From NCBI GenBank assembly GCA_050273025.1, contig CP158635.1, forward strand, positions 3,844,001 to 3,908,000: a stretch of 64,000 nucleotides of DNA, in the 5' to 3' direction. This document shows positions 1,229 to 47,400 of the stretch, in pieces; position 1 is the stretch's first letter; every line of letters begins with the position of its first letter. The notes below the pieces were generated by a model that saw only the letters and a list, made by a program, of their open reading frames with translations, searched no databases and had not been told where the DNA came from. The translations under genes were made by a program, and so were the position numbers. Source of the DNA: Cenococcum geophilum (taxonomy: Eukaryota).

Positions 1229-1934
1229 ATACCTAAAGCAATTTCTTCTTCTTTAACTGCTCGTCGTATTCGCACTATTACTGCAATATTATCTCTTAGT
1301 GAGATTATACTATCTCCGTATTCTCGCTACTTAAAAAAGGGGTTAGTTTATATTGCGTTAGTAAACCCTTCTTTATAATAACTATCCTTTTACTTAAAGT
1401 ATACTAAAGTAAATATTTATTTATCCTATAACATTTGCTTTATTTCTAATACTAAATATACGCGACCTATTACTCTTAATAGTTATCTAGTTCCCTAATT
1501 AATTTATCTTAGGGTTTTATATTTAATCTACTGCTATATAGCTAGATAATAAACTATTTATTACTCTAGTAGAGTTATACTAATCCTAAGACGCTAAACG
1601 GGAGGCTACTAATGCTTAGTAATGGGCCCTTAAGTCTTATCTAGCGGTATTTACTTAGTTAATTTATCTTAAGAAGGTACGTAAGAAGATTTATTTTAAG
1701 GAGTAGAAACTTATAAAATAGGGTTTATAAGAACTTAGTAATAAAAAAACGGATTCTTCTCTAACTAAGAAGGAAATAGATCTAAGTAGTTTGGCAACTA
1801 CTTTTCTTAGGTCCCCCTTAGGTAACTTATTTTTTAGTAATCCTTTTTTATTAATGCTACCTAACCTAATTTCTTTTAATACTCCTATACCTTTTTTATA
1901 GTATTTTTTAAATTCTCTAGTAGCTCCTAGGTAG
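1229..1934 (+). pseudogene. Antisense spliced gene in G1: Cys6 zinc-cluster-like plus coiled-coil protein (RIP relic)
   Basis: De-RIPed reading MPKAISSS..PCSRCSKKGLVCIALADPSSRQPSSCSECTKANIRSSCDV. TAT/TAC codons at 1319, 1328, 1349, 1391, 1400 and 1427 give Cx2Cx6Cx13Cx2Cx8C. Intron about 1458-1512, then a helical segment ARLIRLEKVRKK..LVEQGLQEL. Confidence 0.72.
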
Positions 1935-4900
1935 TCTTAGCGTAGCCTATCCACTTAACTTTATACTATATTTTATTATTAATATCTTTATAACTAATAA
2001 TCCTTAAAACTTACTATTTGTCTTTTTTATACCCTCTATATATATCTACCTTATAGACTAGTGGTTTAATATTTCTATATACTAGTTTTAGCATTATAAT
2101 ATACTATATAGAGTAGATCTTTATTTTAGCTAGTAAGTTTAACTTAAATATAACTGGTAAAATCCTTTACTTAATCTTAAAAGGTCCTAGTTTAACGTAG
2201 TTTAACTTCTTACTTAATTATTAACTCTTAAAAATTTTATATAGTAGCCATACTTTATCTCCCTCTTTAAGATCTAGTTCCTTAGATCTCTTAGCATTAT
2301 AGTATCTTTTTATTTTTTATTATACTATCTTTACTAATTCCATAAGGTCTATATAAAGATTTATTAATATCTTTATTCTCTATTTAGCTATACTACTTAT
2401 CTTTTTTGCTTAATATAGCAATAATAATATCCTTAGCTTATATCTATAATTTACCTTAAATAGTAATATGCCTATTCCTTTTTAAGGTATTATATTATAT
2501 ATAAACTATATAACTAGTAATAATAATACCTAATTATTTTATATATAATTAATATAATGTTTTAGATACTGTTCTAGTATCTAATTTAGTCTCTTTATTT
2601 AACCGTCTATCTACAAATAATATACAGTAGAAGTTACTACTCTAACTCCTTATTCCGCTAAGAATACCTCCTAAAATACTACTATAAATCTTAGATCTCT
2701 ATCTAATATAATTTTACTTAATACTCTATATCTTATAAATACTTCTTTAATATAAATTCTAGTAATATCTTCTAGTAATATTTCTTCTATATATGCTATA
2801 AAGTATCCCTACTTTATAAGCTTATTTACTATTACTAAGATTTTATTATAATCTTATCTAGTAATAGGGTCTCTTAACTTTAATAACTTAATAATAAAGT
2901 CCTATAATATAACCTCCTATAGTCTCTCTAGTATTTTAATAGGTTATAGCCCTCTATATAGCTTATACCTTATTAGTTTATTTCTTTAATAATCTAGGTA
3001 CTCTTTTATAACTTTTTATACTAAGCCCTAAATTCCATTAATAATATACTCCTCTTAAAGTCTTAACACTAAGCCTATAGCTTTATTATATTCTTAAGTT
3101 ATTCCCTTATAGAAATCTTCTATAAAGTATTCTGCTATACTTTTTAGAATATATATTACTTCTTAACTTTTATATATATCTATTTATAGATCTTCTAATT
3201 ATACTTTTAGAATCCTTTATACCTAAAAGCTTTCTAGTAACTTATAAACTCTATCTAGTTCTTCTTAAGTTATTATAATTTTTGGATAATTATATCTAAT
3301 CAGTTTATCTATATCTTTTTATAGTAAAGCCCCTAATAGCTTCTTATTATTTTATAGTTTAGCCTTTTAACTTAGAGCATCTACTTATATATTATCTATA
3401 CCCTTAATATACTAAATCTTAAAATAGTATTCTATAAGTATCTCTGCCTATTTAACCTATCTTTAGTTAAGCTCCTTTATTATTAAGAATCCTATTAGGT
3501 TCTTATAATCTATCTTAACTATAAATAGTTTTTCTATACCTTATAAGAATGCTCTCTATTTCTTTAATACTATAACTATACCTAATAACTCCTTATTATA
3601 GATATTATAGTTTAACTCTAGTAGTGTTATCTTCTAACTATAGTATACCACTAGGTGCTATCTATCTTAATACCTTTATATAAAGTACGCCCCTAATATA
3701 TAGTCTAATATATCTATTTCTATAACTATTTCTAGTTCTAGTTAATAGATCTTAAGAATTGGCTCCTAGGTAAATAACTCTTTAACTTTTTTAAAGAGTT
3801 TCTTTTATTCCTCTCCCTATACCTATAGTTCTTCTTTCTTTATTAATTGTATAAATGGTTTAATATCCTTTAACTATTACGCTATAAACCTTTTATAGTA
3901 ATTGCAAAACCCTAGGAATAATCTTAACTATATAACGTTTTCTAGTTTTTACTAATTTACTATAGCCTTAATCTTCTTTAGATCTATACTAAGTTAGCCT
4001 AATTTAATAATAAATCTAATAAAATCGGTTTTCCTAGTAAAGAACTTGCATTTTTTTAATTGCTACTAGTATCTGTTCTTATAGTCTCTTTAAAACCCAT
4101 TTAATATATTCCCCGTATTCTTCCTTAGTTATTAAATAGATAATAATAATATTAAAATATACTATAATAAATTTATCTAAGTATTCTCCTAATATATTAT
4201 TAATACGCTTTTAAAACGTTACTAGTGCGTTTATAAGCCTAAATTATATAACTAATAGTTTATACAGTCCTTTCTTTAACCTAAAGGCTGCCTTTTATTT
4301 ATTACCTTCCTTAATTCTAATCTAATAGTATACCTATCTTAAATCTATCTTTATAAAGATTTACGCATTACCTATTTTATCTTAAATTTCGCTAATTAAG
4401 GGTAAAGGATACCTATCCTTTCTAGTAATGCTATTTAACTATCTATAATTAATATACAGCCTTAGTTTACTATTTTTCTTTAGTATAAATAGTACTGGAT
4501 AACCCGCTAATAACTGCGATAGTCTAATATATCCCTTTCATAGATTTTCTTAAATAAACTCTTTTAATACTCTACCTTCTTTTTTAGTAAGCTTATAGAT
4601 TAGAAAGAACCTTAGACTTATTCCTGGTTTTAATTCTATCTTATAGTCCTATACTATATACTCTAACAGCTTTTCACTCTTTAGTAACTATAGTTTTTTG
4701 CCATACTTATGGTATCTCTTTAGTATATAACTTAAGCCTCGCTTAGTCTCTTTATATATTACTCTAACTTAGTACTATACTATCTTAGCTTATTATCGCA
4801 TTTTATGGCGTTAAGTATTTTTAATATTAACTTAACCTATAACCTAATCGATCCTTAGATTATATTTTTATAACTAAGGCATTCCTAATACTGCCTTATT

Positions 4901-23091: not shown

Positions 23092-23482
23092 CGTTGTCGT
23101 CTAGTTCTGGCGACGGTTGTCTGGCTCTAGCGACGGTCGTCTAGTTCTAGTAACGGTCCTCTAGTTTTGGCGACGGTCGTCTGGTTCTAGCGATGGTCGT
23201 CTATCTTTAGTAATAGTCGTCTAGCTCTGGCGACGGTCGTCTGGCTTTAGCGACAGTCGTTTAGTTCTAGCGACGGTCGTCTAGTTCTAGTAATAGTTGT
23301 TTAGTTCTAGCGACGATCGTCTAGTTCTAGCGATGGTCGTCTAATTTTGGCGACGGTTGTCTAGCTCTAGCGACGGTCGTCTGTCTCTGGCGACAGTTAT
23401 TTAGCGACGGCGACGGTCGTCTAGTAACGGCGACGGTTGTCTGGTTCTAGCGATAGTTATCTAGTTCTAGTAACGGTCCTCT
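23092..23482 (+). repeat. 20-bp minisatellite (GACGGTCGTCTAGCTCTGGC)n, about 19 units, in element A
   Basis: Period 20 is directly visible; no spacers. Confidence 0.92.
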
Positions 23483-23714
23483 GCTAGCTGCCGTTCTAGT
23501 GCCTCCCTAGGTAGGGAGGATATAAGGAAAGAAGGAAGGGTAAAAAATAAGGCGGCTATATAGGTAGAGATACGTATAGAGGCTATTAGGAATATAGCGG
23601 GGACCTAATGTAGAGCTTTATATAGAGCCTTATACAGAGCCTTATATAAAGCCTTTAAGTAATAAAACTATATAAGATTATATAAGATTGTATAATTAGT
23701 ATATAACTTTACCT

Positions 23715-23800
23715 AGTCGTCAAAAACGGACTCTGCACCTGTATGTGGTGACGGCTACAAACCTAAGTCTTTAAAGTTTAGACTTAGAGCCAACGCAGAG
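23715..23800 (+). ncRNA. Predicted HDV-like self-cleaving ribozyme
   Basis: P1 AGTCGTC/GACGGCT, P2 CTCTGC/GCAGAG, P3 ACC/GGT, L3 TGTATGT, P1.1 GT/AC, P4 CTAAGTCT/AGACTTAG, J4/2 AGCCAAC. Nucleotide +1 is the first base after the TSD. Confidence 0.8.
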
Positions 23801-24732
23801 ACGTCGCATAGCGTGCGATATGACGTGGTGGAGGTGGTTGCGAGTATTATGGGCGGTGGTGAAAAGTTTTTACATGGGATAGTGAGATCTCAAAAACCAC
23901 CACCGTTGGTACCCCTTACGATAACAGCTACTACACTATCCTCCTATTAAGGCACCTATACGATCCAACATGGATATATAGCATTTAATAGCATCCCCTA
24001 ACCCCCAACGGAAAGCATTAACAACCTCTTATATTAACGTACAAGCGAACGCGAATAGATAAAAATAAGCAAATATACGGCCCCTTCTAACCCCTAGGGC
24101 GATCGCCCGCAGAGCATATGGTTACTCGCCATTAACTATTAAATACTACCTAGCAGCCTGGATAACACCGTACGGTTTTCCTATCTCCTCTTAAGGAGTG
24201 GTGACCCTTAGTAAGGGCCTAGCAACTAGGGCCTAGGTATAAAAAATACCCAGGCATATACACACACGTCCCACTCGCCTTTTAGTATAATAGTAGTTTA
24301 TAGATAAATCCCCCTTACGCCTTTAATAGGCCCTAGGGGGGGGGAGGTATAGCGTATATAGTAATAGTTAGACAAGAGATAGTATATAGGGGATAGCTAA
24401 GATATAGGAAATAATAAGTATAGTAATTAATTGGCAAGGCCTAGCTGGGACATAGTGAACCCCAGCTAGGATAAGCTAGAGAAGGAAGTAGTGGTTCCTA
24501 AGGAGTTCAAAACATCTAAGGAGGAGGACGTAGCTGTAGGCCTGTAGGGCCGCACTACGTGCAAATATGGCAATTTGGGGTTTTTTATCCGACTAAGGTG
24601 GCTCATAGGGTTTTTCCTTCCCCTAACTGCAGGGTTTTCTTCATATAAATTACAAGTCCCCCCCCTGTGACGGAGTAGTCTGCGTGGGCCAGTAGGATCC
24701 GTATTAGACGTTAATTAAAGAGTTACTACTAC
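23715..24732 (+). mobile_element. Non-autonomous non-LTR retroelement (SINE-like or internally deleted LINE), 1018 bp
   Basis: 15-bp TSD TATATAACTTTACCT (23700-23714, 24733-24747), (TAC)n tail, 3' stem-loop shared with 38935-39033; no RT or endonuclease motifs recognised. Confidence 0.88.
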
Positions 24733-24757
24733 TATATAACTTTACCTTAATTGCATA

Positions 24758-24990
24758 TTAAGGAATATATAGTTAGCTTTTAAAGTTGCCAAGTAGGTTA
24801 ACTGCATATTATTTAACTTTTAAATATATTAAGTAGGTTAACTGCGGGTTAAGGAATATATAGTTAGCTTTTAAAGTTGTCAATTAGGTTAACTGCGTGT
24901 TATTTAACTTTTAAATATATTAAGTTAGTTAATTACGTGTTAAGTTAGTCAATTACGTATCAAGCTGGTCAATTTGCATGTCAATTACGC
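24758..24990 (+). repeat. Subterminal repeats of element A
   Basis: About 91-bp tandem duplication (TTAAGGAATATATAGTTAGCTTTTAAAG...) followed by short AAGTTAGT(T/C)AATTACGT units. Confidence 0.75.
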
Positions 24991-25045
24991 GAAACGCGCT
25001 AAACAAAGTCTACTTAAATCTTATCCTACGAATATTTTCCCGATA

Positions 25046-25487
25046 AAGGCTGTAGTTAGGCTACTAGTTAAGCGGAGCGATATTAAGGCCGACTTAAAGG
25101 ATTATAAGGGTCGAACGCCACTGTTATTGGCGGTAGAAAAAAGGCATAAGGCTATAATTAAGCTACTAGTTAAGCGGAGTGGTGTTAAGGCTGACTTAAA
25201 GAATATATAAAGTTAAACGTCACTATTATAGGCGGCAAGGAATAGGCACGAGGCTATAATTAAGCTGCTACTTGCTGAAGACGTTAATATAGACTCTAAG
25301 AATAAAGATAGTTGGATACCGATATTATAGGCGGCAGAGAATGGGCATAGGGAGATAGTTAAGCTGCTACTTACCGAAGGAGTTAATACGGACCCTAAGG
25401 ATAAATATAGTTGGATACCGCTATTATAGGCGGCAGAGAATAGGCATAAGGAGATAGTTATACTCTGCTTATGAAAGGGGCTGATAC
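25046..25487 (+). pseudogene. Ankyrin-repeat host gene fragment 2 (about 4 repeats)
   Basis: KAVVRLLVKRSDIKADLKDYKGRTPLLLAVEKRHKAIIKLL..; two further WIP(I/L)L*AAEN(G/R)H.EIV repeats; RIP stops. Confidence 0.9.
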
Positions 25488-28400: not shown

Positions 28401-31400
28401 GAGGGCTAATCTTACCTATTAGTAGGATGTTAGGGACCGCAACCTAGCCTTTACCTAAGAAGATGCCCGTTATAAGGCCGGAAGGAACTCTTTTATACCG
28501 ATAAAGATACTCCCCTAAAGTGCTATAGTTAATAAAAACTCTACGTATAGTAGCGGGATAGATAGTAATGTAGATAACGTCTAAATTACGCAGATTTAAC
28601 TAATATAGAAGAGAATATACTAATAGGACATAAGAGATAACCTCTAAAAGATATAATAGGAGCTAAAAGGAGTGATAATAACGCCTTTACCCTAAAAGCC
28701 CCTAAGGTCCTATATACCCCTATTATTACGCAACCCCCCTATAGTAGATATTGCGGCAATTAGCGCTATAGTATTCTACTTTAATATATATAGGAGGGAT
28801 AACGAGGTCTTTATAACTAGCTTATATAAAATTAACTAGATTATTAACGAGAGGGAAGAAAAGCCAGCTAAGGAAACTAATAAGGAACTAGTTAAACGCC
28901 TCCTCCCTACTATTTATACGGGATATAAGAATGCATTCTTAAAAGCGGCTTTAGGTAAGTTACCTCCTTACTAGATATACAATTATAAGATTTAATTAGA
29001 AGCTAATAACTTGCTAGGATATAGCCCTCTATACTAATAATTAATAGATAAGCTAAAAGTAATAAAGTAGTACTTAATTAAGAACCTTAATAAAGGTTTT
29101 ATTAAGCCAAGCTAAGCCCCTTTTACTTCCCCTATTCTATTTATAAAAAAGGCTAATAAAAGCCTTTATTTCTATATTAACTATTAAAAGCTAAACGCTA
29201 TTACTTAAAAGGATTAGTATCTTATTCCTTTAATTAATAAAACCCTTATATATCTAAGCTAGGTAAAGATCTTTACTAAACTTAATATCCGCTAAGCTTT
29301 CTACTAAATTAAAATAGACCCTATATCTAAAGATTTAATAACGTTCTATACCCATTATAGGTCCTATAAATATAAAGTCCTTCCTTTTAGACTAATAAAT
29401 AGGCTAGCTATATACCAAAGGTATATAAGCGATGTCCTTTTTAACTACCTTAATAAATTCTATACAGTATATCTAGACGATATTCTTATATACTTAAACG
29501 ATGAACTTAAGTATAAAGTTTATATAAAGAAGGTCCTAGAGAGACTACGGAATATAGGCTTATAAGTTAATATTAAGAAATATAAATTTAGAGTAAAACG
29601 TATAAAGTACCTTAGGTTTATTATTATTATAAAAGGAATTAAAGTTAATCCTAAAAAGGTTAAAGCAATCTATAACTAAAAACCCCCTTATACCGTAAAA
29701 GGAATCTAGTCCTTCCTTAGTTTTTATAACTTTTACTATTAGTTTATCCGTAATTATAGAGTTATAGCTAAGCCTTTTATACAACTTACCTGGAAAGATA
29801 CGCCCTTTACCTTTAATAGTGACTATATAGAAGCCTTTAAAGAGTTAAAAGAGCGGCTTATCTCTTCTTTAATCCTTTATTACTATAACCTAGACCTTAA
29901 ATTAATGTTAAAAATAGACGCTTTTAACGGAGTTATAGCGGGAATCCTATTACAGCTATATTAGGACGGCGAATAGTACTCTATTACCTTCTTTTTAAAA
30001 TAATAAACCTAGCTAAGTGTAACTACGAAATATATAATAAAGAAATGCTAGCTATTATTTAATTGCTATCCTAATAGCGCGTGGAGCTTAAAGGTATAAA
30101 CTCCCGGATTAAGATATATATAGATTATAAGGCCCTAGAGTACTTTATAACTATAAAGTAGCTTACTAGATAGTAAGCCTAGTAGGCTAAAGTACTTTCC
30201 TAATTCTTCTTTATAATTATATATCGTTTTAGTAAGTAAAACTCTAAGGCTAATGCCTTAACTTAAAGAGAATGAGATATAGGACCTTAGAATAAGCTAA
30301 AGACCTAATACCAGACGCGTGTACTCCTCTATCCTAAATAGCTTAACCTATAGATCCTTAAGGAGCTAAACTCCTAGTAAAACGAGCTAGTACTAATAGA
30401 GGAGTCCTTAGACGAACTAATAGGGCTAATTAACCGCCTCCTAACTATAAACCGTACGGCTAACGCTTTAAAGGCCCTCCGCGATTAAGCTATAAAAAGA
30501 GACCCCAATTTTAAAACGGAGGAAGGATTGCTCCTATATTAAGAGCGGCTTATAGTCCCCAACGTTAATAATTTATAGACTAAACTAATTCGCAAAGCCT
30601 ATTACTAAGTCTCTATGGTATACCCTAGTAAGAATAAGACCTGTAAAATTATTAGTGGCCGCTACTACTGGCCTAGGATGGCTATAGATATTAATTAATA
30701 TATATAGAACTGCGATAACTACTGAAGAGCTATAATCCTACGAGATAAAACCCTAGGACTACTAAAACCGCTCCCAATACTAGAGCGCCCTTAGTAATAT
30801 ATCTCTATAGACTTCTATAAACTACCTATAGACCGTAACGGATATAATATAGTTATAATTCTAGTTAATTACTTTAGTAAGCGCCTATTTTTAATCCTCT
30901 ACTATAAGAATATTAATGCTAAAGAGGCGGCCTAGCTATATATTTACTACGTCTACTAAATTTACGGACCGCTAGATATTATTATATCTAATTATAGGCT
31001 ATAGTTTATATTAGCTTTCTAAAGCAAGTTTACCTAGATCCTAGGTATTAAGCTAAAGCTCTTTATAGTGTATTACCCTTAAATAGACAGTTAGATAGAG
31101 ATTATAAATTAGTATTTAGACTAGAGACTCCGGCCCTTTATTAACTACTTTTAGGATAACTAGTTTAAACTACTCCCCCTAATAGACTATACCCAAGCAA
31201 CCTTACCCTATAACTTTATAGGGTTTGCCCCTATTTAGCTAAAAATGGGCTACTTGCCCCATATAAGCTTTAACTAAAAAAGACTAGAAGAACCTTGGAC
31301 TATATACGAGAAACTATCCTATAGGTAAGGCCCAGTAGTACGCTAAACGCTTAGAAGAGGCCTAGATAGTAGCCCGTAAAAACTTAGAAAAAGCCTAAAG

Positions 31401-38136: not shown

Positions 38137-38934
38137 AGTTTACCCTATTTTCTTACTAGATAAGTTATAAAAAGCTATAAGTAACCTATTACCCAGGTAG
38201 AAGAACAAGCCTTTCCTACCAATTTAACTTAGTGGTAATAATAAATAGGAAGTTAAGGAAATACTAGTATATAAGCTAGTATAAGGAGTGCTAAAATACC
38301 GTGTTTAATAAAAGGGCTATAACCCTGACCTAACCTAGTACCCTACTTAGAACTTTATAGGCTGCCCCTAGAAGCTTAAAGAGTTTTATAATTAATACCC
38401 TAACTTACCTAAACCCCTAAAGTACCTAGATAAGTAAATAGAATATTAATATAATAAAAATAATAAGTTACCGGAAGAGTATAGAGATAAGAACGCCCTA
38501 AGGCCTAAGGAACGAAGCCTACTATAATATACGGCCACCTAGATTTGCGCGTTATATAAGGCCTTTAGATATCTAGGAACTTTAACCGCCGGTTAAAGTT
38601 CTCTAATTAGCTAGATCTTTGCTAAAAGTTTTAGTAGCTACCCTTTCTACTTTAGCGCTTCTACATGATCTACGGTTGCCTTATATACTTAGTTTAAATA
38701 TACTTACGTCTCCTTTTTTTTTTTTTAGTTTTACTTTATTTTTAATAAAGCCTAAGGGTAGGCTTTCTTTTAAAAGGGGGGGGGGTAATATTACGGCACC
38801 GTAACGCGTAACCTAGACAGGGAGCCTAGTTAGGGGTTTGGCTAAGGACATGGCGTTATAACGCGTATATGTTACGCCTCTACCTCCTATATATACCTCT
38901 CCTCTTCTTCTTAGCTTAGTATCTTCGTAATATA

Positions 38935-39033
38935 ATAATAATTCATTGCTTAACGTCCGATTCGGATCCCTATTGGGCCCACGCGGACTACTCCTTATGT
39001 ACATGTGGGGAGAAAACTCTATTTGAGAAAACC
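38935..39033 (-). mobile_element. 5'-truncated non-LTR insertion (99 bp) in the 3' LTR of G3
   Basis: 15-bp TSD TATCTTCGTAATATA (38920-38934, 39034-39048). Absent from the three other LTRs of the family. Short ATTATTAT tail; 3' 60 nt similar to 24672-24730. Confidence 0.85.
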
Positions 39034-42000
39034 TATCTTCGTAATATAGCATTCTATAAGCTTCGGTTTAGAGGCATTTATATAAGCCGTAATAATACTT
39101 ACTCTTAGTTAAGCTCTAATAGATAAGATTGCTGTAGATTGTAAAGTTATTCTCTTTAGTAGATTTATTTATAATAATAATCTTATATCCTAACTAGGAG
39201 CTAAAATCTTTATTATTTATAAATAATCTATTAATAAATATAAAGAGCTTAGCGGTAGGAAAATTAATAGGTATATAGAGTAGTCCCTAATTAAGATGGT
39301 TTATTTACTAAAAAAGATATTTATTTAGGGCAAAGATGTTATTTTTAGTTAGTTCTTAGTGTTAGGTAGTAATAGAGAAATTAAATAAAGCCTTAGGTTA
39401 ATAAATAAAAGTAATATAAGCTCTATAAGCGCGTTGCTCTATATATCTTTACTTTAAAGAATTAACGTTAATAATATTAATCTTCTTGCCTTAACCCTTC
39501 TAGCGTAAAGTAATAGAATCCTTATTTAGGGAGAGGATGCATTTATTAAAAAGTAATAGTATTATTAAATTAAGCTTTTCCTTTAGCTTTACTATAAGAT
39601 TTACCTTTACTAGCTTATTTTCTTTAAGAGCTAAGAATTAATCGTCTTCTAAGATAATTATATTATTAGTTTATATGCCAATAATTCTAAATAGGGTTCC
39701 TATAGTTATAATAAGGAAGTATAAATTAAATATAGAAGTAGTTATTAAAAGTTTCTTTTTATTGTGCTTACTATAAGTAGCCTACTAATAAGTTCCTATC
39801 TCTGTAATTCTATATAATAGCTTAAGTATAACTATAATTATATCTTTAGGATATTAGTGGCGAATTTACTCTAAAAGGTATACTAATATTAAGCGCTAAA
39901 GGTACGTCTCTAATTGGGTGTAGGCCTAGGTAATATCTTATAAATAAACCGCTATTCTATTATTTATTAAGAAGGAGGCTAGCGTAATAATAACTTACTA
40001 ACTAGCTTATTAAATTATAGGAGATTATATAAGAATTACCTTCTTACTATTATTGTTATAACCTTAGATAATAAGCCTTAATTTCTTAAATAGGGCATTA
40101 ATAGCTTTACCTTTAATCTTATTAACTATTCTTAACTTAAAGATACGAACTTTATTAAATTTAGTAAGGTTATACTTCTTAAATTTAAAGACTTCTCTCA
40201 TAATAAGACTATTAATCTCCTACTTATTAAATACTTAAAAAGGAGCTCTAGGGGTTATAATATAACCTTCCTTTTAGAGCTGTTTTATAAGCTTAAAGTT
40301 AGCCTTCTCCTTAGCTAACTTTATTCTTAATGGCGGTAACAAATTGCTCTTTAAAATTAATAAGGTATTAGCGATTTTATAATCCCTTTAGACGACCTCT
40401 ACCGCGTTATAGTTGCGGCATATCTACTATAATTATATTAGAATTGTAGTCGCCTTCTAGAGTACGTTAACTGTAGTTCTCTTCTAGGGTATTTTTTAGG
40501 GTATTCTGCAAAGGCTTAAAACTATTATCTTTATAGTAAGGCTTAATAATAGTTAAACGGAATTAAGTGGGTCTATAAGGCATCTAAATAGTATAAGTTT
40601 AACTATTAATTATAATAAGTTAATATAGGCCTAACTACCCTCCCTTTTTACGCTATATATATACCTTAGACTAAAGTAGCAGATTAAGCGTAGTTAAGGT
40701 ATTTAGGCTATTTCTTATTCCTAGTGTATTATTAACTTAGCGTATAGTATAGAGATGTCGTACCTTCTTTATTACCTTATAAATAGGCTTGGCTTATTAT
40801 ATAATAGAGATAGATAGTAGAGAATTATTAGTTATTTAAGGGTAGGCGCTAAAGACTAGTAAGATAGGTATAAGTTTATCCGGGCTAGCGGAATTATTAA
40901 TAGCTTTAATAGCTATTTATAAGGTAAGTTTTTTACTAGTATCCTCTAGTTTTAAAGAGATAATATTATATATGCGGCGTAATAGCGTATAATATTACTC
41001 TACTTTTCTAATACTATTATATGCCTTAATAGGGACTTCCTTAACCTTAATTGCTATTACCTTTATCTATTATTAAAACTCTATAGATAAGAAGTTCTTT
41101 CCTATATTATAGATAATTTAATTAAGGGGTCTTAGGTAAATATTAATCTAGTATAATTAAAGGGTATTTTATATATTCTTAGCTAATATATCCTTTAAGA
41201 AACGTGCGGCTTAAAAGGAGGTTAAAAGTTAATAACTTAGAGTACTAGCTTACCGCTAAGATATATAACGTTAACAATAATATAGAAGTTAAAGTTGTAG
41301 CTATTTTTAAGGGTAAACTTAAATCGGCTAGGGGACTTCTAGTTTATTTAGTAGTAATAGTAGTACCTTATAAGATGCTTAATTACCCTAACCTTAACTT
41401 TATAGCCTACTTACTAAAGGACCCTAAGTAATTAATAAATAGATAGGTAGCTAAAATAACGGTATAGTTGGCGTAACTCTAACTTAGTTAAGTAGCTTTA
41501 AGTAATACTCTTTTCTAGTTAATAAAGGAGTAATTAGGAGTAACCCTACTTATATATAACGGGTACCTAACTATCTCCCTAAACGAGTATATTCTTAAGG
41601 TTATTAAGCTTAACGCCTAATTAATTTATATTTCTAATATAAAATAGAAATGGGGTATTTATAGGAATAATATAGAAAGTAATATACCCTAAGGGGGTTT
41701 AGACTCTAATTATACTAAAAGAAATTATAGTACCCTTACTAAAATAAATTGTATATTAGCCTGCTATTAAATAGTTAATCTAAATAGAGTTATTAAGCTG
41801 CTAAAGGGCTTAAATTTAAGGTTCTCCTACTATAGATACTTCTACGGCTCTAGTATCTAGTATAATACTATAGAAGATATTCGCCGAGTATTTATTATTA
41901 AAGGAGAATATAAAACTCTCCTTTAGCTTATTAAAGATATTTAACTTTATAATAGAATAGAGCGTAGATTAGTTATTAAGAATAGCGACGGTTTATATAC

Positions 42001-43708
42001 TATTTACCTTACTATACTTAGTAAAGTATTAGTTAGGGGAGTAGTTTTTAATTTCTATATCTATAAGGAGCTATTTAGCCTTATTAACCTTACCTTTAAG
42101 ATTTTCTATACCTTTATATTAAACCAGAAAGCTTTAAAAGTAAGCTATAGTAACCTTATAATTTCCAACATTTCTTATACTTTAGCAAAACTTATTATAT
42201 ACCTCCTTTCGCTTATTAAAAAAATAACTAGTTAACTCGTAATTTAGCTTCTTATAAATGTAGCACTTTTTTTAGTAATTATTTTAAAATAAACCTCTAT
42301 AAGGACCTTTACGATTACCTTATAATTAACGTTAATTATACCCTCTACTATATTACCTACTACGGCCACTATATATTTAATTAGTTTAGTTATAATTATA
42401 TTAGTTAGGCGGGTCGGTTAAAGTAGGTTAAAGTTAGGCGTTAAATTGCTATACTTTTTAAGAGCGTAGAGCGGTGCTAATAGAAGATCTTAATTAGGTA
42501 TATACTTCTTTATAAGTATTTACAGGATTAAAGAGAGTAAGGTTATATTCTTTAACACCTTAGTATACGCTAATAACTTAATTATATAAGCTAAAATCCT
42601 GATAATATAATTTAAATAGACCACGCTAAATTATCTAAAGTTAATTAAAGAGCTTTTAAAGATAATCGAGCCGAGGAATACCTAAGTTTATAGTAATAAT
42701 TCTTAAAAAGGTAATTTCTCTCCATTCTAATATATACTGCTACTTCTTCTCTTCTATTTTAAAGTAGTATCTTAACTTATATATTATACGGTTAAAGTTA
42801 TATCCTTTTTCTACTAAACAATTATAATAAAAGGTACTAGCTCGGCCCCTAAGTATAATAGAATAGGCGTTATAGTATTAATTAGACTTTATTTCTACCT
42901 TTTAGCAATAATTATAAAAGATACGCAATTTTAAATTTTAAATTTTATATAATTTCCCGCTAAACTTCCTCTTCTAATCTAAATAGAGCTTCGTAAGCTC
43001 TATAAGTAATTTTAAAATGCCTTTAATTTAAGATTAAGATAAAGGAGGTAGGAGTTATATTATAGGCTGTAGTAGGGATGTAGGTCTAGTTAGTGGAGTT
43101 TAAAGGTTATTAAATTATAAAGTAATAGGATCCTATACCTGCTCTTATTAGGGTATAGTATCTAATATTAAAGTTATAGGTTAAATTAGATATAGAGGAG
43201 TTAAAGGTAGAGGTAGATTTGTCTTTAGAAGTATATTACTTAAATTCTATTATAAGTTAAGCTTCCTTATAGTGCGTAGTTGGTGCTTAATCTCTTATAG
43301 AGTCCATTTATGCTCTTTTTTTGCTCTAATAACCTACTCCTAAATATTATCTCTAATAGTACCCCCATCTATAGGTATAAATACTCTATACTTATATAAA
43401 AAGTTATAGAAGTCTTATATAATATCCTTCTTTATAGGAGTTTATATTCCCTTTATCCATTTAATAAAGTCCTCCCTTATATAGTATTATAGCATAATAT
43501 CGTTATATTTGCTGTCTTTATAGTATACTATATAGTATAATAAGAATCTATTTAAATCTTTTTAATTAATATCTTTAAGGTTAATTATATTGGTTTTCTA
43601 TATCTCTAGGTTAATATCATCCTTATACTTCTTCGGGTAGGTTAACGCCATAATAGCTATTATTAAAGGTTGTTTAATACATTTTTTTTAAGGGAAATAA
43701 AGGTTATT

Positions 43709-43874
43709 TGTAAGCTTTGCAGTGTGTGGGAATTAAACGAGCAACTTGATTGTAAATCTATGGGTATTAAGTGGAATATATACATGAAATAGTAGCTGAA
43801 ATAGGAACAGTGATCTGCAATCAATATATAGGGTGGCGTTGAGGCTGTCTCGGCAGCACCCGTAGTTGGTTATA
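43709..43874. mobile_element. Solo LTR (166 bp) in the 5' leader of C1
   Basis: TGTAA...TTATA termini with 5-bp TSD TTATT; less RIP-altered than its flanks. Confidence 0.65.
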
Positions 43875-44411
43875 TTATTTAATGTGTAGTTAGGTAGTAA
43901 TTATAATCCTATAGTTTGCGAAGGTACGCTAAAGGTATTAAGATAGTTGTTTTAACGCGTTTTAGACGTTAACTTAGGACCCTAGGTTTAGTAACACTTT
44001 TAACCTAAAGTACTTAACTAAATCTTTATAAACGTGGTTATTCTATATAATATATGCAACTTAGTATCTCCTAGTACTTAGTAATACTTCTATTACTAGT
44101 TTTTTATAAGTTTAAGGTAGTATAGTATCGCCGGGATCTATTCCATATAAGCGTATATAGCACCCCTATACGAGACTATCTCTTCTATTTAAAAACCTAG
44201 CTGCTCTATAGTTAACTATATATTTAACCACTAATTAGTATTAGCTATATAGGGTAACTTACTAATAACAACTACTGGAGTAGGTTATAGTGATATTGGT
44301 TAATATATTTCTTATTAATTGGAATAAGAAAGGGCGAGGAGCTTAAGACTCCTCGCCACGCTAGTGCTGCGGCAATATGTAATAACTGCTTACCTTATTC
44401 CTAATAGATAC

Positions 44412-44487
44412 GAACTTTAAAGACAAAGATAGGCGGCGGCAATATATAGGCAGGACGCAGTAATTAAGCTGCTATAACTGTATAAGA
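44412..44487 (+). pseudogene. Ankyrin-repeat host gene fragment 3 (3' end)
   Basis: Across the C1 TSD the sequence reads KGADT|NFKDKDRR; an AVIKLL segment follows after a small frameshift or deletion. Confidence 0.65.
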
Positions 44488-47400
44488 ACCTATCTTAGTA
44501 ATATATAAAAGGGGTTAATATAAAATCTACTTCCTTCTAGTACCGATTAAGGCTTAATAGCTTTATAGAAACTAGACGTTATAATATAGTAGTATAACTC
44601 AGTCCCCTAAATTTAATGTTTAGATTAGGGATAGCTTTAAGGATATATAGGCCTTTATTGGTTTAAAGCCCTAGAGTTTTTTATAACTCTAATAGGCAGT
44701 AACGTAGGTGATAGGGTTATAATGGTAGGTATAGTTATAACAGTTTAGAATATTAAAACTGCGTATAGACGAAATTTATTAGTATGCCGACTGTTATAAC
44801 CCTATTGCCTACATTATTATTATTTATATTAATTTAATAATATAAGTAGGCTATATCCAGGGGTATGAAATACGTGTAGTATTGTATACTCTTTTAGATA
44901 GTAGTGACTGTCAATTCTATTAAGGTAGACTACGTAGTCTATATACTAACGCGTCCTCCCCCCTAATTAGTTATAAGTAAGTAGTTAGTATACTAAACGC
45001 GTAGACACGCGTTTGGTATACCAGGTGCTGTAATTATATACTAGCGGCACTTAAAGATAGACCCACTTGTATATAGCCTCCGTAATTACCTTATTAAAAC
45101 TATAAAATATAAAAGAAATATATAGGAAATCCCTCCTAAGGTGCCTTCTAGGCTGCCTTCTAAACGGTGCTTTAAGCTGGCCGTAAGTCCTACTTACGGC
45201 CTGTAAAATAAACCGTACGGCCTTCTGACGGACTATAAATAAGCTATACAGCCTTCTAACGGGCCGTAAATGAACTGTAAGTGCTCCATTAGTCTTATTC
45301 CACCCATTCTATAACCTTTAGATTAAGCTTATTTATATTAATTAGGGTTTTAAGAGCTTAGCATAGTTTTACCTTAGTTATAGCATCTACTAGGTTGTCT
45401 TCGCCGCTAATCTATTTAACCTCTATAATCTTATGTCGTTTATAGGCCTAATATAAGCATATTAGGTCGACTATAAGCCTCTTCTCTTATATTATACCTA
45501 GTTTAACTAGGCAGTTATAAAGGGACTTTAAATCAGTATATAAAACTAGGGGTAACTGCTCCAATTATAGAATCTTCTAGATTGTTAATTTAATTATAGC
45601 TGCTATATTAAAGCTATAAGCTAGTATATATAGTTTAGAAGCTAGTATACTGCGGGTTACTTATTTGCATTTAATTAAAGACTAATATAGTATATTTACA
45701 TTCTAATTACGGTCTGTAAGTATAACTATAAAGCCAATTTATAATAATAGGTCTCTATTATTGGCGAAGGAGGCGTCCGTAAATACTAGTACGTTAAGGG
45801 AATTTAGGCCTAGTAGTACAAAAGTAAATCCCCTTACTTTATTATTAATTTGCCACTAAATGCGCTTATTAAGCTGCTTAATATTTTCCTCTTGCGGATC
45901 TATTACCTGGGCCATAAAGGATAAATTAAAGGTAGATTTGGGTTAACAGACTATAGCAATATAGGCGCCTCTTACACGCTATGCAACGTATTAATCCTTT
46001 ATATTTACGGTCTTATAGGTCTCTTTATAGGAACTAGTAAGGTCTATAGGCTTTACTATAATAAGCCTTAGGTTTTAAGCTTGGCGTTTTTAAGTTAGCT
46101 AAATTAGGTTGCCCTTTTATGTAATTAAGTCTCCATTAAACTTAATTAGAGTTTACTCAGTTAACTACTCTCGTGGCTTTGCTAAGAACTTTACCTCTTA
46201 TAGTTTAGTCTCTTTAGCGTCCGCAAAAGTCCGGTTTACTAAGAAGAGGGTATTATCTATTTCTAGTCCAATAATACTAAGGCCGTTTAATAGGGTGTAT
46301 AGGAGGCAGGGGTTGTAGGTTAACTGTTTCATTTTAAGTTTACTAATATAATACTAGTAATACATTTTAAACTAGTGGTTTCTAGCTTCTAGCACTCCGT
46401 AAAGGGGTTTTATAACCTATAAAATTATTCTTAATTACGAATTAAGCTTAAGGGGTAGTTATATTAAGATATCTCTACTTAGGTAGGTATTAGACTGCAC
46501 ATAGGCTTGCGAGATATTCTGTAAGTAGAGGGCTACGGGTTTAGTTTACTATAGTCTAGGCATAAGTGCAAGTATAATCCGTTAACTAACCCATTAAATT
46601 ATAGGCGATTATATAAGAACTAAGTCCTTTCCCTAGTTATTATAAGCTTATATAATAAGCCTTAATTTTTTTAAAGGCTTTATTAGTACTAGGGTGCTTA
46701 ATTTTATTAATAAAGTGTAAGTTAAATATACGGACGCCTTGCGGAACGTCTCTTTCCATTATAGCCGTAAAAACACCCTTTTTAAGTAGTCTATTAATTT
46801 TCTTGCGTTATAAGTCCGTAAAAAGTGTTTTCTATACTAGAACTAATATATCTGTAGGTAGAAGTTGCCTTACGGATGTACCTGTAAAGTTTAGGTAATT
46901 CTTTATTACGGGGTTCTTAGTTATAGGGTGCTTTTAGGGGCGTCCTTAACCGCGCTTTATAGTAGGTTTAATAGGTTTCTAGGGGACTTCTAAAGTAGGT
47001 AGGGGTGCTTTTAGTTTGTTTGGTTTAGTAGGTGCTTCTAGTTTATCTAGTTTAACGGCATAGGTATTTTTAGACCAAAAGTAGGGTTTTATAAACGTGC
47101 TTTTAAAGTTAATTAGTCTGCTAGGAAGTTATATATAGCACATTTCGTCTTCTACAGCTAGTAGACGATAAGGTCTAGTCTAGTTGCCGCTTTTATACTA
47201 TATAAAGACTTTAGAATTAAGCGGGAGGTTATAAACTAAGGTTATATTAGGTCGGTTGCAGTAATATAGGGCGCTATTAATAGCTTATTTAGCCCATAAT
47301 TTAACTATTTTAGCTATTACCTTCTGTATTACAGCTGCTTATTCTATAATAGATGGGGTAGGAGGGCCTAGGTTACTTATCCTTAAGTAAGCTCCATAAA

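What the first reader, a model, noticed from the sequence alone, without database searches (positions are those of the whole stretch)
23715..23800. HDV-like ribozyme forming the exact 5' end of a fungal SINE-like retroelement
Seen: every strand of the HDV nested double pseudoknot is present in the correct order. These are a 7-bp P1 (23715-21/23750-56), 6-bp P2 (23731-36/23795-800), 3-bp P3 (23737-39/23747-49), L3 UGUAUGU keeping the U20 and G25 equivalents, P1.1 as GU/AC instead of the usual CC/GG, an 8-bp P4 hairpin, and J4/2 with a candidate catalytic C (23790 or 23791). The predicted cleavage site falls exactly at the junction defined independently by the 15-bp TSD. The +1 A follows a T, so it may be a RIP-mutated G (the canonical G1.U wobble). 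Known: HDV-like ribozymes process the 5' ends of R2, L1Tc and other non-LTR elements. Inference: self-cleavage releases a unit-length RNA from read-through transcripts, so no promoter is needed.
Basis: partly seen in the sequence, partly recalled or inferred. Interest (0 to 1): 0.92.

Follow-up and report, generated by a model that had tools for sequence, protein, structure and literature searches.

The report
Self-cutting RNA heading a fungal retroelement
A roughly 1-kb non-coding jumping element, probably fungal, begins at its very first base with a well-formed hepatitis-delta-type self-cutting RNA fold, a trick known from animal and trypanosome retroelements, and the copy in this window is a mutated relic of it.

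Summary
The 15-bp target-site duplication is exact and places the element start at 23715 (element 23715-24732, TAC-repeat tail).

A mutation-tolerant pattern scan of metagenome contigs found nine more full-length copies:
- All nine start at the same base, after unrelated flanks and their own 9-15-bp duplications.
- All nine carry G at +1.

The intact form (three loci identical over the first 110 nt) has:
- a G1-U wobble pair;
- an L3 loop reading UGUACGU;
- a 2-bp P1.1 that pairs with non-canonical bases;
- an 8-bp P4;
- a junction (CCAAC) holding a candidate catalytic C.

In 27.6 Mb of random sequence, my post-hoc strict version of the motif began at about 1.5 per 10 million positions. A canonical version never occurred.

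Stranded RNA reads cover the ribozyme-sense strand. Depth rises about 140-fold at the element's start, and read ends pile up at +10/+11.

Against this, Rfam gave no hit and there is no covariation. Cleavage is untested.

I read it as a genuine HDV-like ribozyme (about 0.75) heading a non-autonomous non-LTR retrotransposon. That makes it a new member of a known kind. HDV-class ribozymes in fungi are already published.

The parts
23700..23714 (+). 5' copy of the 15-bp target-site duplication TATATAACTTTACCT
   Evidence: Exact second copy at 24733-24747.
23715..24732 (+). Full-length copy (1,018 bp) of a non-coding, non-autonomous non-LTR retroelement, RIP-mutated
   Evidence: Nine full-length relatives at 79-93% identity share the same two ends. 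There is no long ORF or tRNA. This copy carries 120 RIP-type transitions.
23715..23800 (+). HDV-like nested double-pseudoknot ribozyme, here a RIP-damaged copy with 9 transitions, including G1>A and C>U in L3
   Evidence: Helices verified. The intact form is seen in L001, L008 and L009.
23715..23721 (+). P1 5' strand. The predicted cleavage site lies immediately 5' of 23715.
   Evidence: Pairs with 23750-23756. It is 98.2% paired across the copies.
23731..23739 (+). P2 5' strand (23731-36) followed directly by the P3 5' strand (23737-39)
   Evidence: Pairs with 23795-23800 and 23747-23749.
23740..23746 (+). L3 loop: UGUAUGU in the window, UGUACGU in 9 of 9 other copies. Positions 2-3 form P1.1 with 23757-58.
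   Evidence: In one search, other copies and the RNA reads carry C at 23744.
23763..23787 (+). P4 hairpin (8 bp, 9-nt loop)
   Evidence: The pair at 23765/23785 is G-C in 3 copies, A-C in 5 and A-U in 2.
23788..23794 (+). J4/2 junction AGCCAAC with the candidate catalytic C (23790 or 23791)
   Evidence: C23790 is invariant in 10 of 10 copies and C23791 in 9 of 10; L005 has T. The descriptor C-R-R-A from PMC6326823 is matched at 3 of 4 positions in either register.
23805..23817 (+). 5-bp hairpin directly 3' of the ribozyme (CGCAC-AGC-GUGCG in intact copies). Subfamilies diverge right after it.
   Evidence: Read. In one search, contig loose ends start behind 23817 and insertions and transversions start at 23816-23841. 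Any function is inferred.
24724..24732 (+). (TAC)3 3' tail
   Evidence: All copies end in TAC or TAT repeats.
24733..24747 (+). 3' copy of the target-site duplication
38932..39033 (-). 5'-truncated 102-nt copy of a diverged relative: shared 3' module plus a (TAT)n tail, flanked by a 12-bp duplication ATTACGAAGATA (39034-39045 and 38920-38931)

Best explanation
The first 86 nt of a ~1,017-bp non-coding, LINE-dependent (non-autonomous non-LTR) retroelement family fold into an HDV-like self-cleaving ribozyme.

In the intact family sequence the ribozyme would cut the transcript immediately 5' of G1. Whatever lies upstream is removed, so every RNA template, and hence every new DNA copy, starts at the same base.

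An unidentified autonomous element's reverse transcriptase then copies the RNA at a nicked target. This leaves a TAC-repeat tail and a 12-15-bp target-site duplication.

The window copy is an old insertion that RIP-type C-to-T and G-to-A mutation has since damaged. It has 9 changes in the ribozyme, including G1 to A and the L3 C to U, so this particular copy is probably impaired.

**Shown:** the fold, the core nucleotides, the identical 5' ends, the G at +1, sense-strand RNA with a sharp 5' edge, and the RIP spectrum.

**Inferred:** catalysis, the role in trimming read-through transcripts, and the dependence on a partner LINE.
For: 1. **Fold.** All helices of the nested double pseudoknot are present. 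In intact copies all 26 pairs are standard.
2. **Core nucleotides.** In intact copies they match the published descriptor read in PMC6326823 (passages): a G1-Y pair (G-U), L3 with U at position 1 and C-G at positions 5-6, a 7-nt L3, a 3-bp P3, and a J4/2 C followed by A-A.
3. **Position.** The motif starts at the base fixed independently by the duplication. The window copy and all 9 metagenome copies start there, after unrelated flanks, each with its own 9-15-bp duplication.
4. **Chance.** The strict motif started 2 times in 12.7 Mb and 2 times in 14.8 Mb of random sequence. The canonical version started 0 times in both. No other strict hit exists on either strand of the window.
G at +1 holds in 9 of 9 other copies.
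6. **RNA (run X21, stranded).**
   - First-mate-on-minus depth is 9.4 in bin 23670-23723 against 1,352 in bin 23724-23777.
   - Depth reaches up to 4,203 further in, against 3.7-92 for the other direction.
   - Molecule ends pile up at 23724 (315) and 23725 (238).
7. **Not a Pol III head.** There is no tRNA-like or other Rfam head in the intact copies.
8. **Precedent.** L1Tc and its non-autonomous partner NARTc share a 77-nt HDV-like ribozyme cleaving at +1 (PMC3185411, passages). A review states that LINEs and SINEs with HDV-like ribozymes are known in metazoans (PMC6765202, passages).
Against: - **Rfam.** No HDV-family model matches. There is no match at gathering score on the window or on L001, L008 and L009. 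There is none at E up to 10 on the window copy or on L008. These models are narrow and cannot encode the pseudoknot.
- **Covariation.** There is none. 94.7% of cells are paired, equal to the shuffled mean, and 395 of 500 shuffles are at least as high. The variation is post-insertion RIP decay.
- **Selection.** There is no significant sign of purifying selection. 1 of 48 C/G sites changed in the ribozyme against 25 of 461 elsewhere (p = 0.27).
- **P1.1.** It is G-C plus U-A, not the two C-G pairs fixed in the descriptor.
- **J4/2.** It fits C-R-R-A at only 3 of 4 positions.
- **Nested folding.** The nested fold of the intact 86-mer is unremarkable (z = -0.87). It includes a competing 4-bp hairpin that uses the P1 5' strand.
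- **RNA edge.** The edge lies at +10/+11, not +1. It would look the same for a transcription start.
- **Independence.** The nine extra copies come from only two metagenome data sets. They were selected with a pattern taken from the 5' end.
- **Descriptors.** They were written post hoc.
Confidence: 0.75

Rival explanations
1. The conserved, structured 5' module is an internal promoter, a start-site region or a handle recognised by the reverse transcriptase. RNA would start at G1 by transcription initiation. The HDV-like drawing would be a non-catalytic look-alike.
For: - Uniform 5' ends and a sharp RNA edge with almost no upstream reads are exactly what an internal promoter gives.
- No junction-spanning precursor reads were seen in the rows shown. 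The tool's note under the loose-ends table says 1,299 further rows were not shown.
- There is no Rfam hit and no covariation.
- P1.1 uses non-canonical bases.
Against: - The strict motif occurs at about 1.5 per 10 million positions in random sequence, and the canonical version never did. Here it starts on the first base.
- The catalytic-core identities are all present in the intact copies: the G-U wobble, U and C-G in L3, and C-A-A in J4/2.
- No tRNA-like head is found.
- Promoter and ribozyme functions are not exclusive. L1Tc's Pr77 has both (PMC3185411).
Confidence: 0.18
2. Pure chance: an AT-rich, RIP-mutated repeat happens to allow an HDV-like drawing.
For: Loose core topologies are common. 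The window's + strand has 316 distinct start sites, and both strands together show thousands of configurations. The descriptor was tuned after the fact.
Against: - The less mutated copies fit better than the window copy, not worse: G1, the L3 C and a G-C pair in P4.
- The motif begins at the one base fixed by the duplication in all 10 copies.
- The intermediate-level chance rate is 2-7 per 100,000 positions, and the strict rate is about 1.5 per 10 million.
Confidence: 0.03
3. It belongs to the published fungal 'variant HDV ribozyme' class of Li and Breaker 2017, and so is simply another copy of a known, validated motif.
For: That paper reports 230 representatives in 26 fungal species with validated cleavage. 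It notes 11 earlier fungal examples that fit the general consensus (PMC5640933, passages).
Against: The three features that define the variant class are absent here.
- The cleavage-site pair is G-U, not C-G.
- No extra nucleotide lies between P2 and P3.
- P4 is a plain 8-bp hairpin without an evident E-loop.

The words 'retrotransposon' and 'transpos' occur 0 times in that paper's main text. Its supplementary alignments could not be opened.
Confidence: 0.04

Closest known systems
L1Tc / NARTc Pr77 HDV-like ribozyme of Trypanosoma cruzi (PMC3185411)
   Same: An HDV-like ribozyme occupies the first ~77 nt and cleaves at +1 of the element. A non-coding, non-autonomous element (NARTc) carries it too. 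It gives a precise 5' end whatever lies upstream.
   Different: - The host is a kinetoplastid with polycistronic transcription.
- Its P1.1 has 1-2 bp.
- It has a poly-A tail.
- It has a proven promoter function.
- Here the host is probably a RIP-active fungus, the tail is (TAC)n, P1.1 is G-C/U-A, and the autonomous partner was not found.
HDV-like ribozymes at the 5' ends of R2, RTE and Baggins non-LTR retrotransposons of metazoans (reviewed in PMC6765202)
   Same: The same ribozyme class sits at the same place in the element. The proposed role is the same: freeing the element RNA from a co-transcript.
   Different: Those are mostly autonomous, protein-coding elements, and R2 is site-specific in rDNA. 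This one is a dispersed, non-coding 1-kb element.
Fungal HDV ribozyme variants (Li and Breaker 2017, PMC5640933)
   Same: HDV-class self-cleaving RNAs in fungi, with cleavage shown in vitro for Penicillium and Aspergillus examples.
   Different: - The variant hallmarks are not present here: a C-G pair at the cleavage site, an E-loop in P4, and an extra nucleotide between P2 and P3.
- That paper's main text mentions no transposon association.
Fungal non-LTR pairs with simple-repeat tails, such as the MGL LINE and Mg-SINE of Magnaporthe (recalled; not confirmed by any search)
   Same: A non-autonomous element that borrows a LINE's 3' module and ends in a short tandem-repeat tail rather than poly-A.
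   Different: As I recall it, Mg-SINE is about 0.5 kb with a tRNA-like Pol III head. This element is 1 kb and has a ribozyme where the Pol III head would be.

Membership tests
HDV-like self-cleaving ribozymes | Nested double pseudoknot: P1 (7 bp) crossing P2, a 3-bp P3 inside P1, P4 between P1 and P2, and P1.1 between L3 and J1/4 | tested here: met
   All 26 pairs are standard in the intact copies. Across the copies 94.7% of cells are paired, against 26-43.5% with slid partners. That control is biased, because the structure was derived from these sequences.
HDV-like self-cleaving ribozymes | G1 paired with a pyrimidine at the cleavage site (G-U wobble) | tested here: met
   G1-U is present in 9 of 9 metagenome copies. 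The window copy has A1-U after a G>A change.
HDV-like self-cleaving ribozymes | L3 with a conserved U at position 1 and a C-G near its 3' end (U19, C23, G24 of the descriptor in PMC6326823) | tested here: met
   L3 reads UGUACGU in L001-L004 and L008-L009. The window has U for the C.
HDV-like self-cleaving ribozymes | P1.1 made of two C-G pairs | tested here: not met
   Both pairs form but with other bases, G-C and U-A. L1Tc works with a single P1.1 pair (PMC3185411), so pairing may matter more than base identity.
HDV-like self-cleaving ribozymes | Catalytic C at the start of J4/2 followed by purines (C-R-R-A) | tested here: inconclusive
   The junction reads CCAAC. Taking C91 gives C-A-A-C and taking C90 gives C-C-A-A, so 3 of 4 positions match in either register.
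HDV-like self-cleaving ribozymes | Site-specific, Mg2+-dependent self-cleavage giving 5'-OH and 2',3'-cyclic phosphate ends | not testable with these tools
   This needs in vitro transcription and end mapping.
HDV-like self-cleaving ribozymes | Match to an Rfam HDV-family covariance model | tested here: not met
   There are no matches at gathering score or at E up to 10. The models are narrow and leave out the pseudoknot.
Fungal variant HDV ribozymes (Li and Breaker 2017) | A C-G pair at the cleavage site, an extra nucleotide between P2 and P3, and P4 partly replaced by an E-loop | tested here: not met
   The cleavage-site pair is G-U. P2 runs directly into P3. P4 is a plain 8-bp hairpin. The features were taken from passages of PMC5640933.
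Ribozyme-headed non-LTR retroelements (R2, RTE, L1Tc/NARTc type) | The ribozyme's +1 is the first base of the element in all copies, with varied upstream flanks | tested here: met
   All 10 copies qualify. The nine extra copies were found with a 5'-end pattern, so 5'-truncated copies could not appear among them.
Ribozyme-headed non-LTR retroelements (R2, RTE, L1Tc/NARTc type) | Target-primed reverse-transcription hallmarks: target-site duplication, 3' tail, 5'-truncated copies | tested here: met
   Duplications of 9-15 bp flank all 10 copies, and every tail is TAC or TAT repeats. A 102-nt 5'-truncated relative has a 12-bp duplication.
Ribozyme-headed non-LTR retroelements (R2, RTE, L1Tc/NARTc type) | An autonomous partner LINE sharing the 5' or 3' module | tested here: inconclusive
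   None is seen in the window. The only reverse-transcriptase remnants are Gypsy-type. Region 38900-45499 gave no Pfam hit when stops were read as X. No whole genome is held.
SINE in the strict sense | A Pol III head derived from tRNA, 7SL or 5S, and a length under about 700 bp | tested here: not met
   ARAGORN and Rfam find nothing in the window or in the intact copies. The length is 1,013-1,020 bp.

The most novel reading that the evidence does not exclude
This would be the first described fungal retrotransposon family that owes its uniform 5' end to a consensus-type HDV ribozyme. The ribozyme would have a base-swapped but still paired P1.1.

A very abundant and strongly transcribed 1-kb non-coding parasite would need no Pol III head and perhaps no promoter of its own. 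It would cut itself out of whatever transcript runs into it in a transposon-dense, RIP-affected genome. Its unseen LINE partner would probably use the same module.
Probability: 0.5. Interest if true: 0.6.

Novelty: new member of a known kind. Interest (0 to 1): 0.5.

Why it matters
If the ribozyme cleaves, ribozyme-defined retroelement 5' ends extend from animals and trypanosomes to fungi.
- It would be a natural HDV-class example with both P1.1 pairs changed yet still complementary, which is useful for structure-function work.
- It would explain how a non-coding 1-kb element without a Pol III head keeps an exact 5' end. Thousands of short contigs from four runs match the 1.6-kb stretch laid, though that stretch also includes repetitive flanks.
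- For annotation, it gives a sequence signature for recognising this family and its still-unknown autonomous partner.

Tried and rejected
- **Whole genome.** None is held. The metagenome records behind the loci are not searchable either, so the autonomous partner and other ribozyme-bearing families could not be sought.
- **Rfam.** No match at gathering score or at permissive E-values.
- **Covariation and selection.** Both tests are uninformative, because the variation is RIP decay of dead copies.
- **Partner LINE in the window.**
  - 99 open frames of 55 aa or more were scanned. They gave only ankyrin and Gypsy-type RT/RNase H hits.
  - A read-through of 38900-45499 (minus strand) with X at stops gave nothing.
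  - The locus at 38932-39033 turned out to be a 5'-truncated relative, not a LINE end.
- **Coding potential.** The least mutated copy, L008, has a 196-aa open frame running from nt 3. It has no Pfam family. L001 and L007 lose the frame to an indel, so I rejected it as a gene.
- **5' module shared with other families.** Contig loose ends behind 23817 at first suggested other families share the 5' module. On inspection they resemble the window's own downstream sequence, so they are diverged subfamilies, not separate families.
- **Taxonomy.** A protein-atlas look-up of an RT fragment was uninformative.
- **Literature.**
  - Searches for HDV-like ribozymes in fungal non-LTR elements found nothing specific. 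One search listed 13 papers and none is on this. One search returned 0 papers. One search was too loose to be useful.
  - Searches for fungal TAC-tailed LINE/SINE pairs gave nothing usable.
- **Papers not held.** Webb 2009, Webb and Luptak 2011 and Ruminski 2011 are not held. Supplements are closed. This family may therefore already be among the 11 consensus-type fungal examples or in the Li and Breaker alignments.

Full report
**1. What is in the sequence**

- P1: 23715-21 with 23750-56 (7 bp, one G-U).
- P2: 23731-36 with 23795-800 (6 bp).
- P3: 23737-39 with 23747-49 (3 bp).
- L3: a 7-nt loop, UGUAUGU.
- P1.1: G23741-C23758 and U23742-A23757.
- P4: an 8-bp hairpin, 23763-70 with 23780-87.
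- J4/2: AGCCAAC.

The 15-bp direct repeat TATATAACTTTACCT is exact at 23700-14 and 24733-47. It brackets a 1,018-bp insertion that ends in (TAC)3. The insertion has no tRNA, no ORF above 46 aa from a start codon, and no Rfam family.

**2. Is it more than chance?**

I wrote a descriptor scanner with these rules:
- P1 of 7 bp.
- P3 of 3 bp.
- L3 of 6-9 nt.
- P2 of at least 5 bp.
- A variable J1/2 and P4.

Results on the window:
- Loose core matches are plentiful on both strands.
- An intermediate level keeps 7 distinct starts. It requires U and G in L3, a C in J4/2, at least 1 P1.1 pair and P4 of at least 4 bp.
- A strict level keeps only 23715. It requires P2 of at least 6 bp, both P1.1 pairs, P4 of at least 6 bp, and C followed by A-A or R-R.

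Distinct start sites in first-order Markov random sequence:

| Composition | Amount | Core | Intermediate | Strict | Canonical (strict + G1-Y + CG in L3) |
|---|---|---|---|---|---|
| Window | 199 x 64 kb | 48,078 | 838 | 2 | 0 |
| Element | 232 x 64 kb | 18,792 | 273 | 2 | 0 |

The descriptors were fixed after I had seen the candidate, so these rates flatter it. Still, the motif must start at one particular base, fixed independently by the duplication. Even the intermediate rate of 2-7 per 100,000 positions makes coincidence implausible.

**3. Relatives**

No genome is held for the window. A run search found the stretch in two coded organisms and in soil and root metagenomes.

Laying four runs showed two things. 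Thousands of short contigs match. The differences are mostly transitions. In run X1, A>G, C>T, G>A and T>C occur at 64, 49, 44 and 56 places. All transversions together occur at 24 places.

I therefore scanned JGI metagenome contigs with a transition-tolerant pattern of nt 1-56. Nine loci came back, from two data sets.
- **Length.** All nine are full-length copies: 1,013-1,020 bp at 79-93% identity.
- **5' ends.** In all nine, similarity starts at exactly the base equivalent to 23715, after unrelated flanks.
- **Ends and tails.** Each has its own 9-15-bp duplication abutting that base, and a TAC or TAT-repeat tail.
- **The +1 base.** All nine have G at +1.

L001, L008 and L009 are identical over the first 110 nt, and I take them as the intact form. 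It has:
- a G1-U wobble;
- L3 reading UGUACGU;
- a P4 pair that is G-C where the window has A-U;
- G where the window has A at 23759.

One search agrees independently. Nearly all contig depth and 1,255 of 1,283 minus-direction RNA reads carry C at 23744. Likewise 1,406 of 1,412 carry G at 23759.

**4. RIP**

Across the ten copies:
- 252 variable columns are transition-only, 33 include a transversion, and 69 include a gap.
- C-to-T polymorphism hits 88% of CpA sites and 56% of CpG sites, but about 20% of CpC and CpT sites.

This is a RIP-like spectrum, and it is my main reason for calling the host a fungus. The coded run labels and the 'fungus metagenome' RNA rows with small shares are no proof.

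The window copy carries 120 such changes. Nine lie in the ribozyme, at element positions 1, 8, 30, 45, 51, 58, 59, 65 and 71. The window holds a damaged relic. Statements about function refer to the intact form.

**5. Fit to the ribozyme class**

The descriptor quoted in PMC6326823 (passages) fixes four features.

| Feature in the descriptor | Intact form here |
|---|---|
| G1-Y pair | Met |
| U19, C23, G24 in a 7-nt L3 | Met |
| Two C-G pairs in P1.1 | Both pairs form, but as G-C and U-A |
| C-R-R-A in J4/2 | CCAAC matches 3 of 4 positions in either register, so the catalytic C is 23790 or 23791 |

Two further points:
- No Rfam HDV-family model matches either form. This is weak evidence, since those models are narrow and ignore the pseudoknot.
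- Nested folding recovers P2 and P4. Its energy is unremarkable (z = -2.1 for the window copy, and -0.87 for the intact form). It also shows a competing 4-bp hairpin on the P1 5' strand. The two nested halves of the pseudoknot score -19.6 and -20.0 kcal/mol, against an MFE of -26.5.

**6. Covariation and selection**

Neither test helps.
- On the ten copies (8 distinct sequences), 94.7% of cells pair, the same as in column shuffles (395 of 500 at least as high). The single double change (G-C to A-U in P4) sits beside five A-C intermediates.
- Transitions that define the larger subfamily hit 1 of 48 C/G sites in the ribozyme against 25 of 461 elsewhere (p = 0.27).
- Columns 57-100 lie outside my search pattern and show no transversion or gap. 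Later bins of 100 columns show 1-7 transversion columns and 2-15 gap columns.
- In one search, indels and transversions between subfamilies begin at 23816-23841, just after a 5-bp hairpin at 23805-17.

The last two points are mild hints of constraint on the first ~103 nt, and no more than that.

**7. RNA**

Run X21 holds raw stranded reads from a coded organism; about 12% of the run was read.
- Inside the element, first-mate-on-minus depth is 1,352-4,203 over 23724-23993, against 17-92 for the other direction.
- In bin 23670-23723 the depth is 9.4.
- Molecule ends pile up at 23724 (315) and 23725 (238).

By the tool's note on usual library chemistry, the RNA is ribozyme-sense. The edge is not an alignment artefact of the two mismatches at 23715 and 23722, because that would place it at 23716 or 23723.

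Loss of roughly the first ten bases is what I would expect from RNase H-primed second-strand synthesis. That expectation is recalled and was not tested. The data therefore fit an RNA 5' end at or near +1, but they cannot tell cleavage from initiation. Most reads are under 90% alike (14,087 of 17,413), so they come from other copies or subfamilies.

**8. What kind of element**

It is non-coding.
- The 196-aa open frame in L008 has no Pfam match.
- L001 and L007 break that frame with an indel.

It has no tRNA-like head, even in intact copies, and it is too long for a classic SINE. A 102-nt 5'-truncated, diverged relative lies at 38932-39033 on the minus strand. That relative has its own 12-bp duplication.

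These are the hallmarks of LINE-type target-primed reverse transcription. The autonomous partner was not found.

**9. Comparison with what is known**

- **Closest analogue.** This is L1Tc/NARTc. The first 77 nt, shared by the LINE and its non-coding partner, are an active HDV-like ribozyme cutting at +1 (PMC3185411, passages).
- **Metazoans.** A review states that LINEs and SINEs with HDV-like ribozymes are known in diverse metazoans (PMC6765202, passages).
- **Fungi.**
  - It reports 230 variant HDV ribozymes in 26 fungal species, with cleavage shown for two.
  - It notes 11 earlier consensus-type fungal examples.
  - The variant hallmarks are absent here, so this is a consensus-type ribozyme.
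  - That paper's main text never mentions transposons.
- **Searches.** My searches found no report of an HDV-like ribozyme heading a fungal non-LTR element. The key primary papers and all supplements were out of reach.

**10. Verdict**

One of its predictions, G at +1, was verified.
- Catalysis and the promoter-less read-through model remain to be tested.
- It is a new member of a known kind. My confidence that the intact form is a working HDV-like ribozyme is 0.75, and I score interest at 0.5.

Noticed in passing
window 38920-39045 (minus strand): A 102-nt 5'-truncated copy of a diverged relative of the element. It has the same 3' module and a (TAT)n tail, and is flanked by a 12-bp duplication ATTACGAAGATA. 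It lies at the edge of a 26-29% GC, heavily mutated block (39001-44000) in which no protein family could be recognised.
   Followed up: partly
window 23096-23482: An array of about 19 copies of a 20-nt unit (GTCGTCTAGTTCTAGCGACG, 71% matches), just upstream of the element. Its right part (23400-23507) was covered by the lay of 23400-25000. Run X21 covers that part strongly in the opposite read direction to the element (first-mate-on-plus 2,424 against 286), and reads show copy-number joints.
   Followed up: no
window 24944-25480: A RIP-degraded ankyrin-repeat coding remnant, seen as 99-102-nt tandem units. Pfam Ank and Ank_2 match the frame at 24944-25207.
   Followed up: partly
window 29308-29961 (+) and 49979-50167 (-): Gypsy-type LTR-retrotransposon remnants (RVT_1 and RT_RNaseH_2 hits on short open frames). 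The window is a transposon graveyard at about 34% GC.
   Followed up: no
window 24747-24974: A 91-nt tandem duplication (2.1 copies, 90% matches), followed by 20-nt repeats. It begins at the last base of the element's 3' target-site duplication.
   Followed up: no
L008 767-1354 (minus strand of the stored locus): The least mutated copy has a 196-aa open frame starting at element nt 3 and running through the ribozyme. It has no Pfam family, and L001 and L007 break the frame with an indel, so it is probably chance.
   Followed up: yes
window 23871-23951: 514 minus-direction RNA reads of run X21 skip 79 nt here. The skipped stretch begins AC and ends AA, which are not intron-like boundaries. This suggests an expressed subfamily with a deletion rather than splicing.
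   Followed up: no
10 copies, target sites: Eight of the ten target-site duplications begin with TA. This overlaps the TAC/TAT tail and hints at microhomology between the tail and the nicked target.
   Followed up: no
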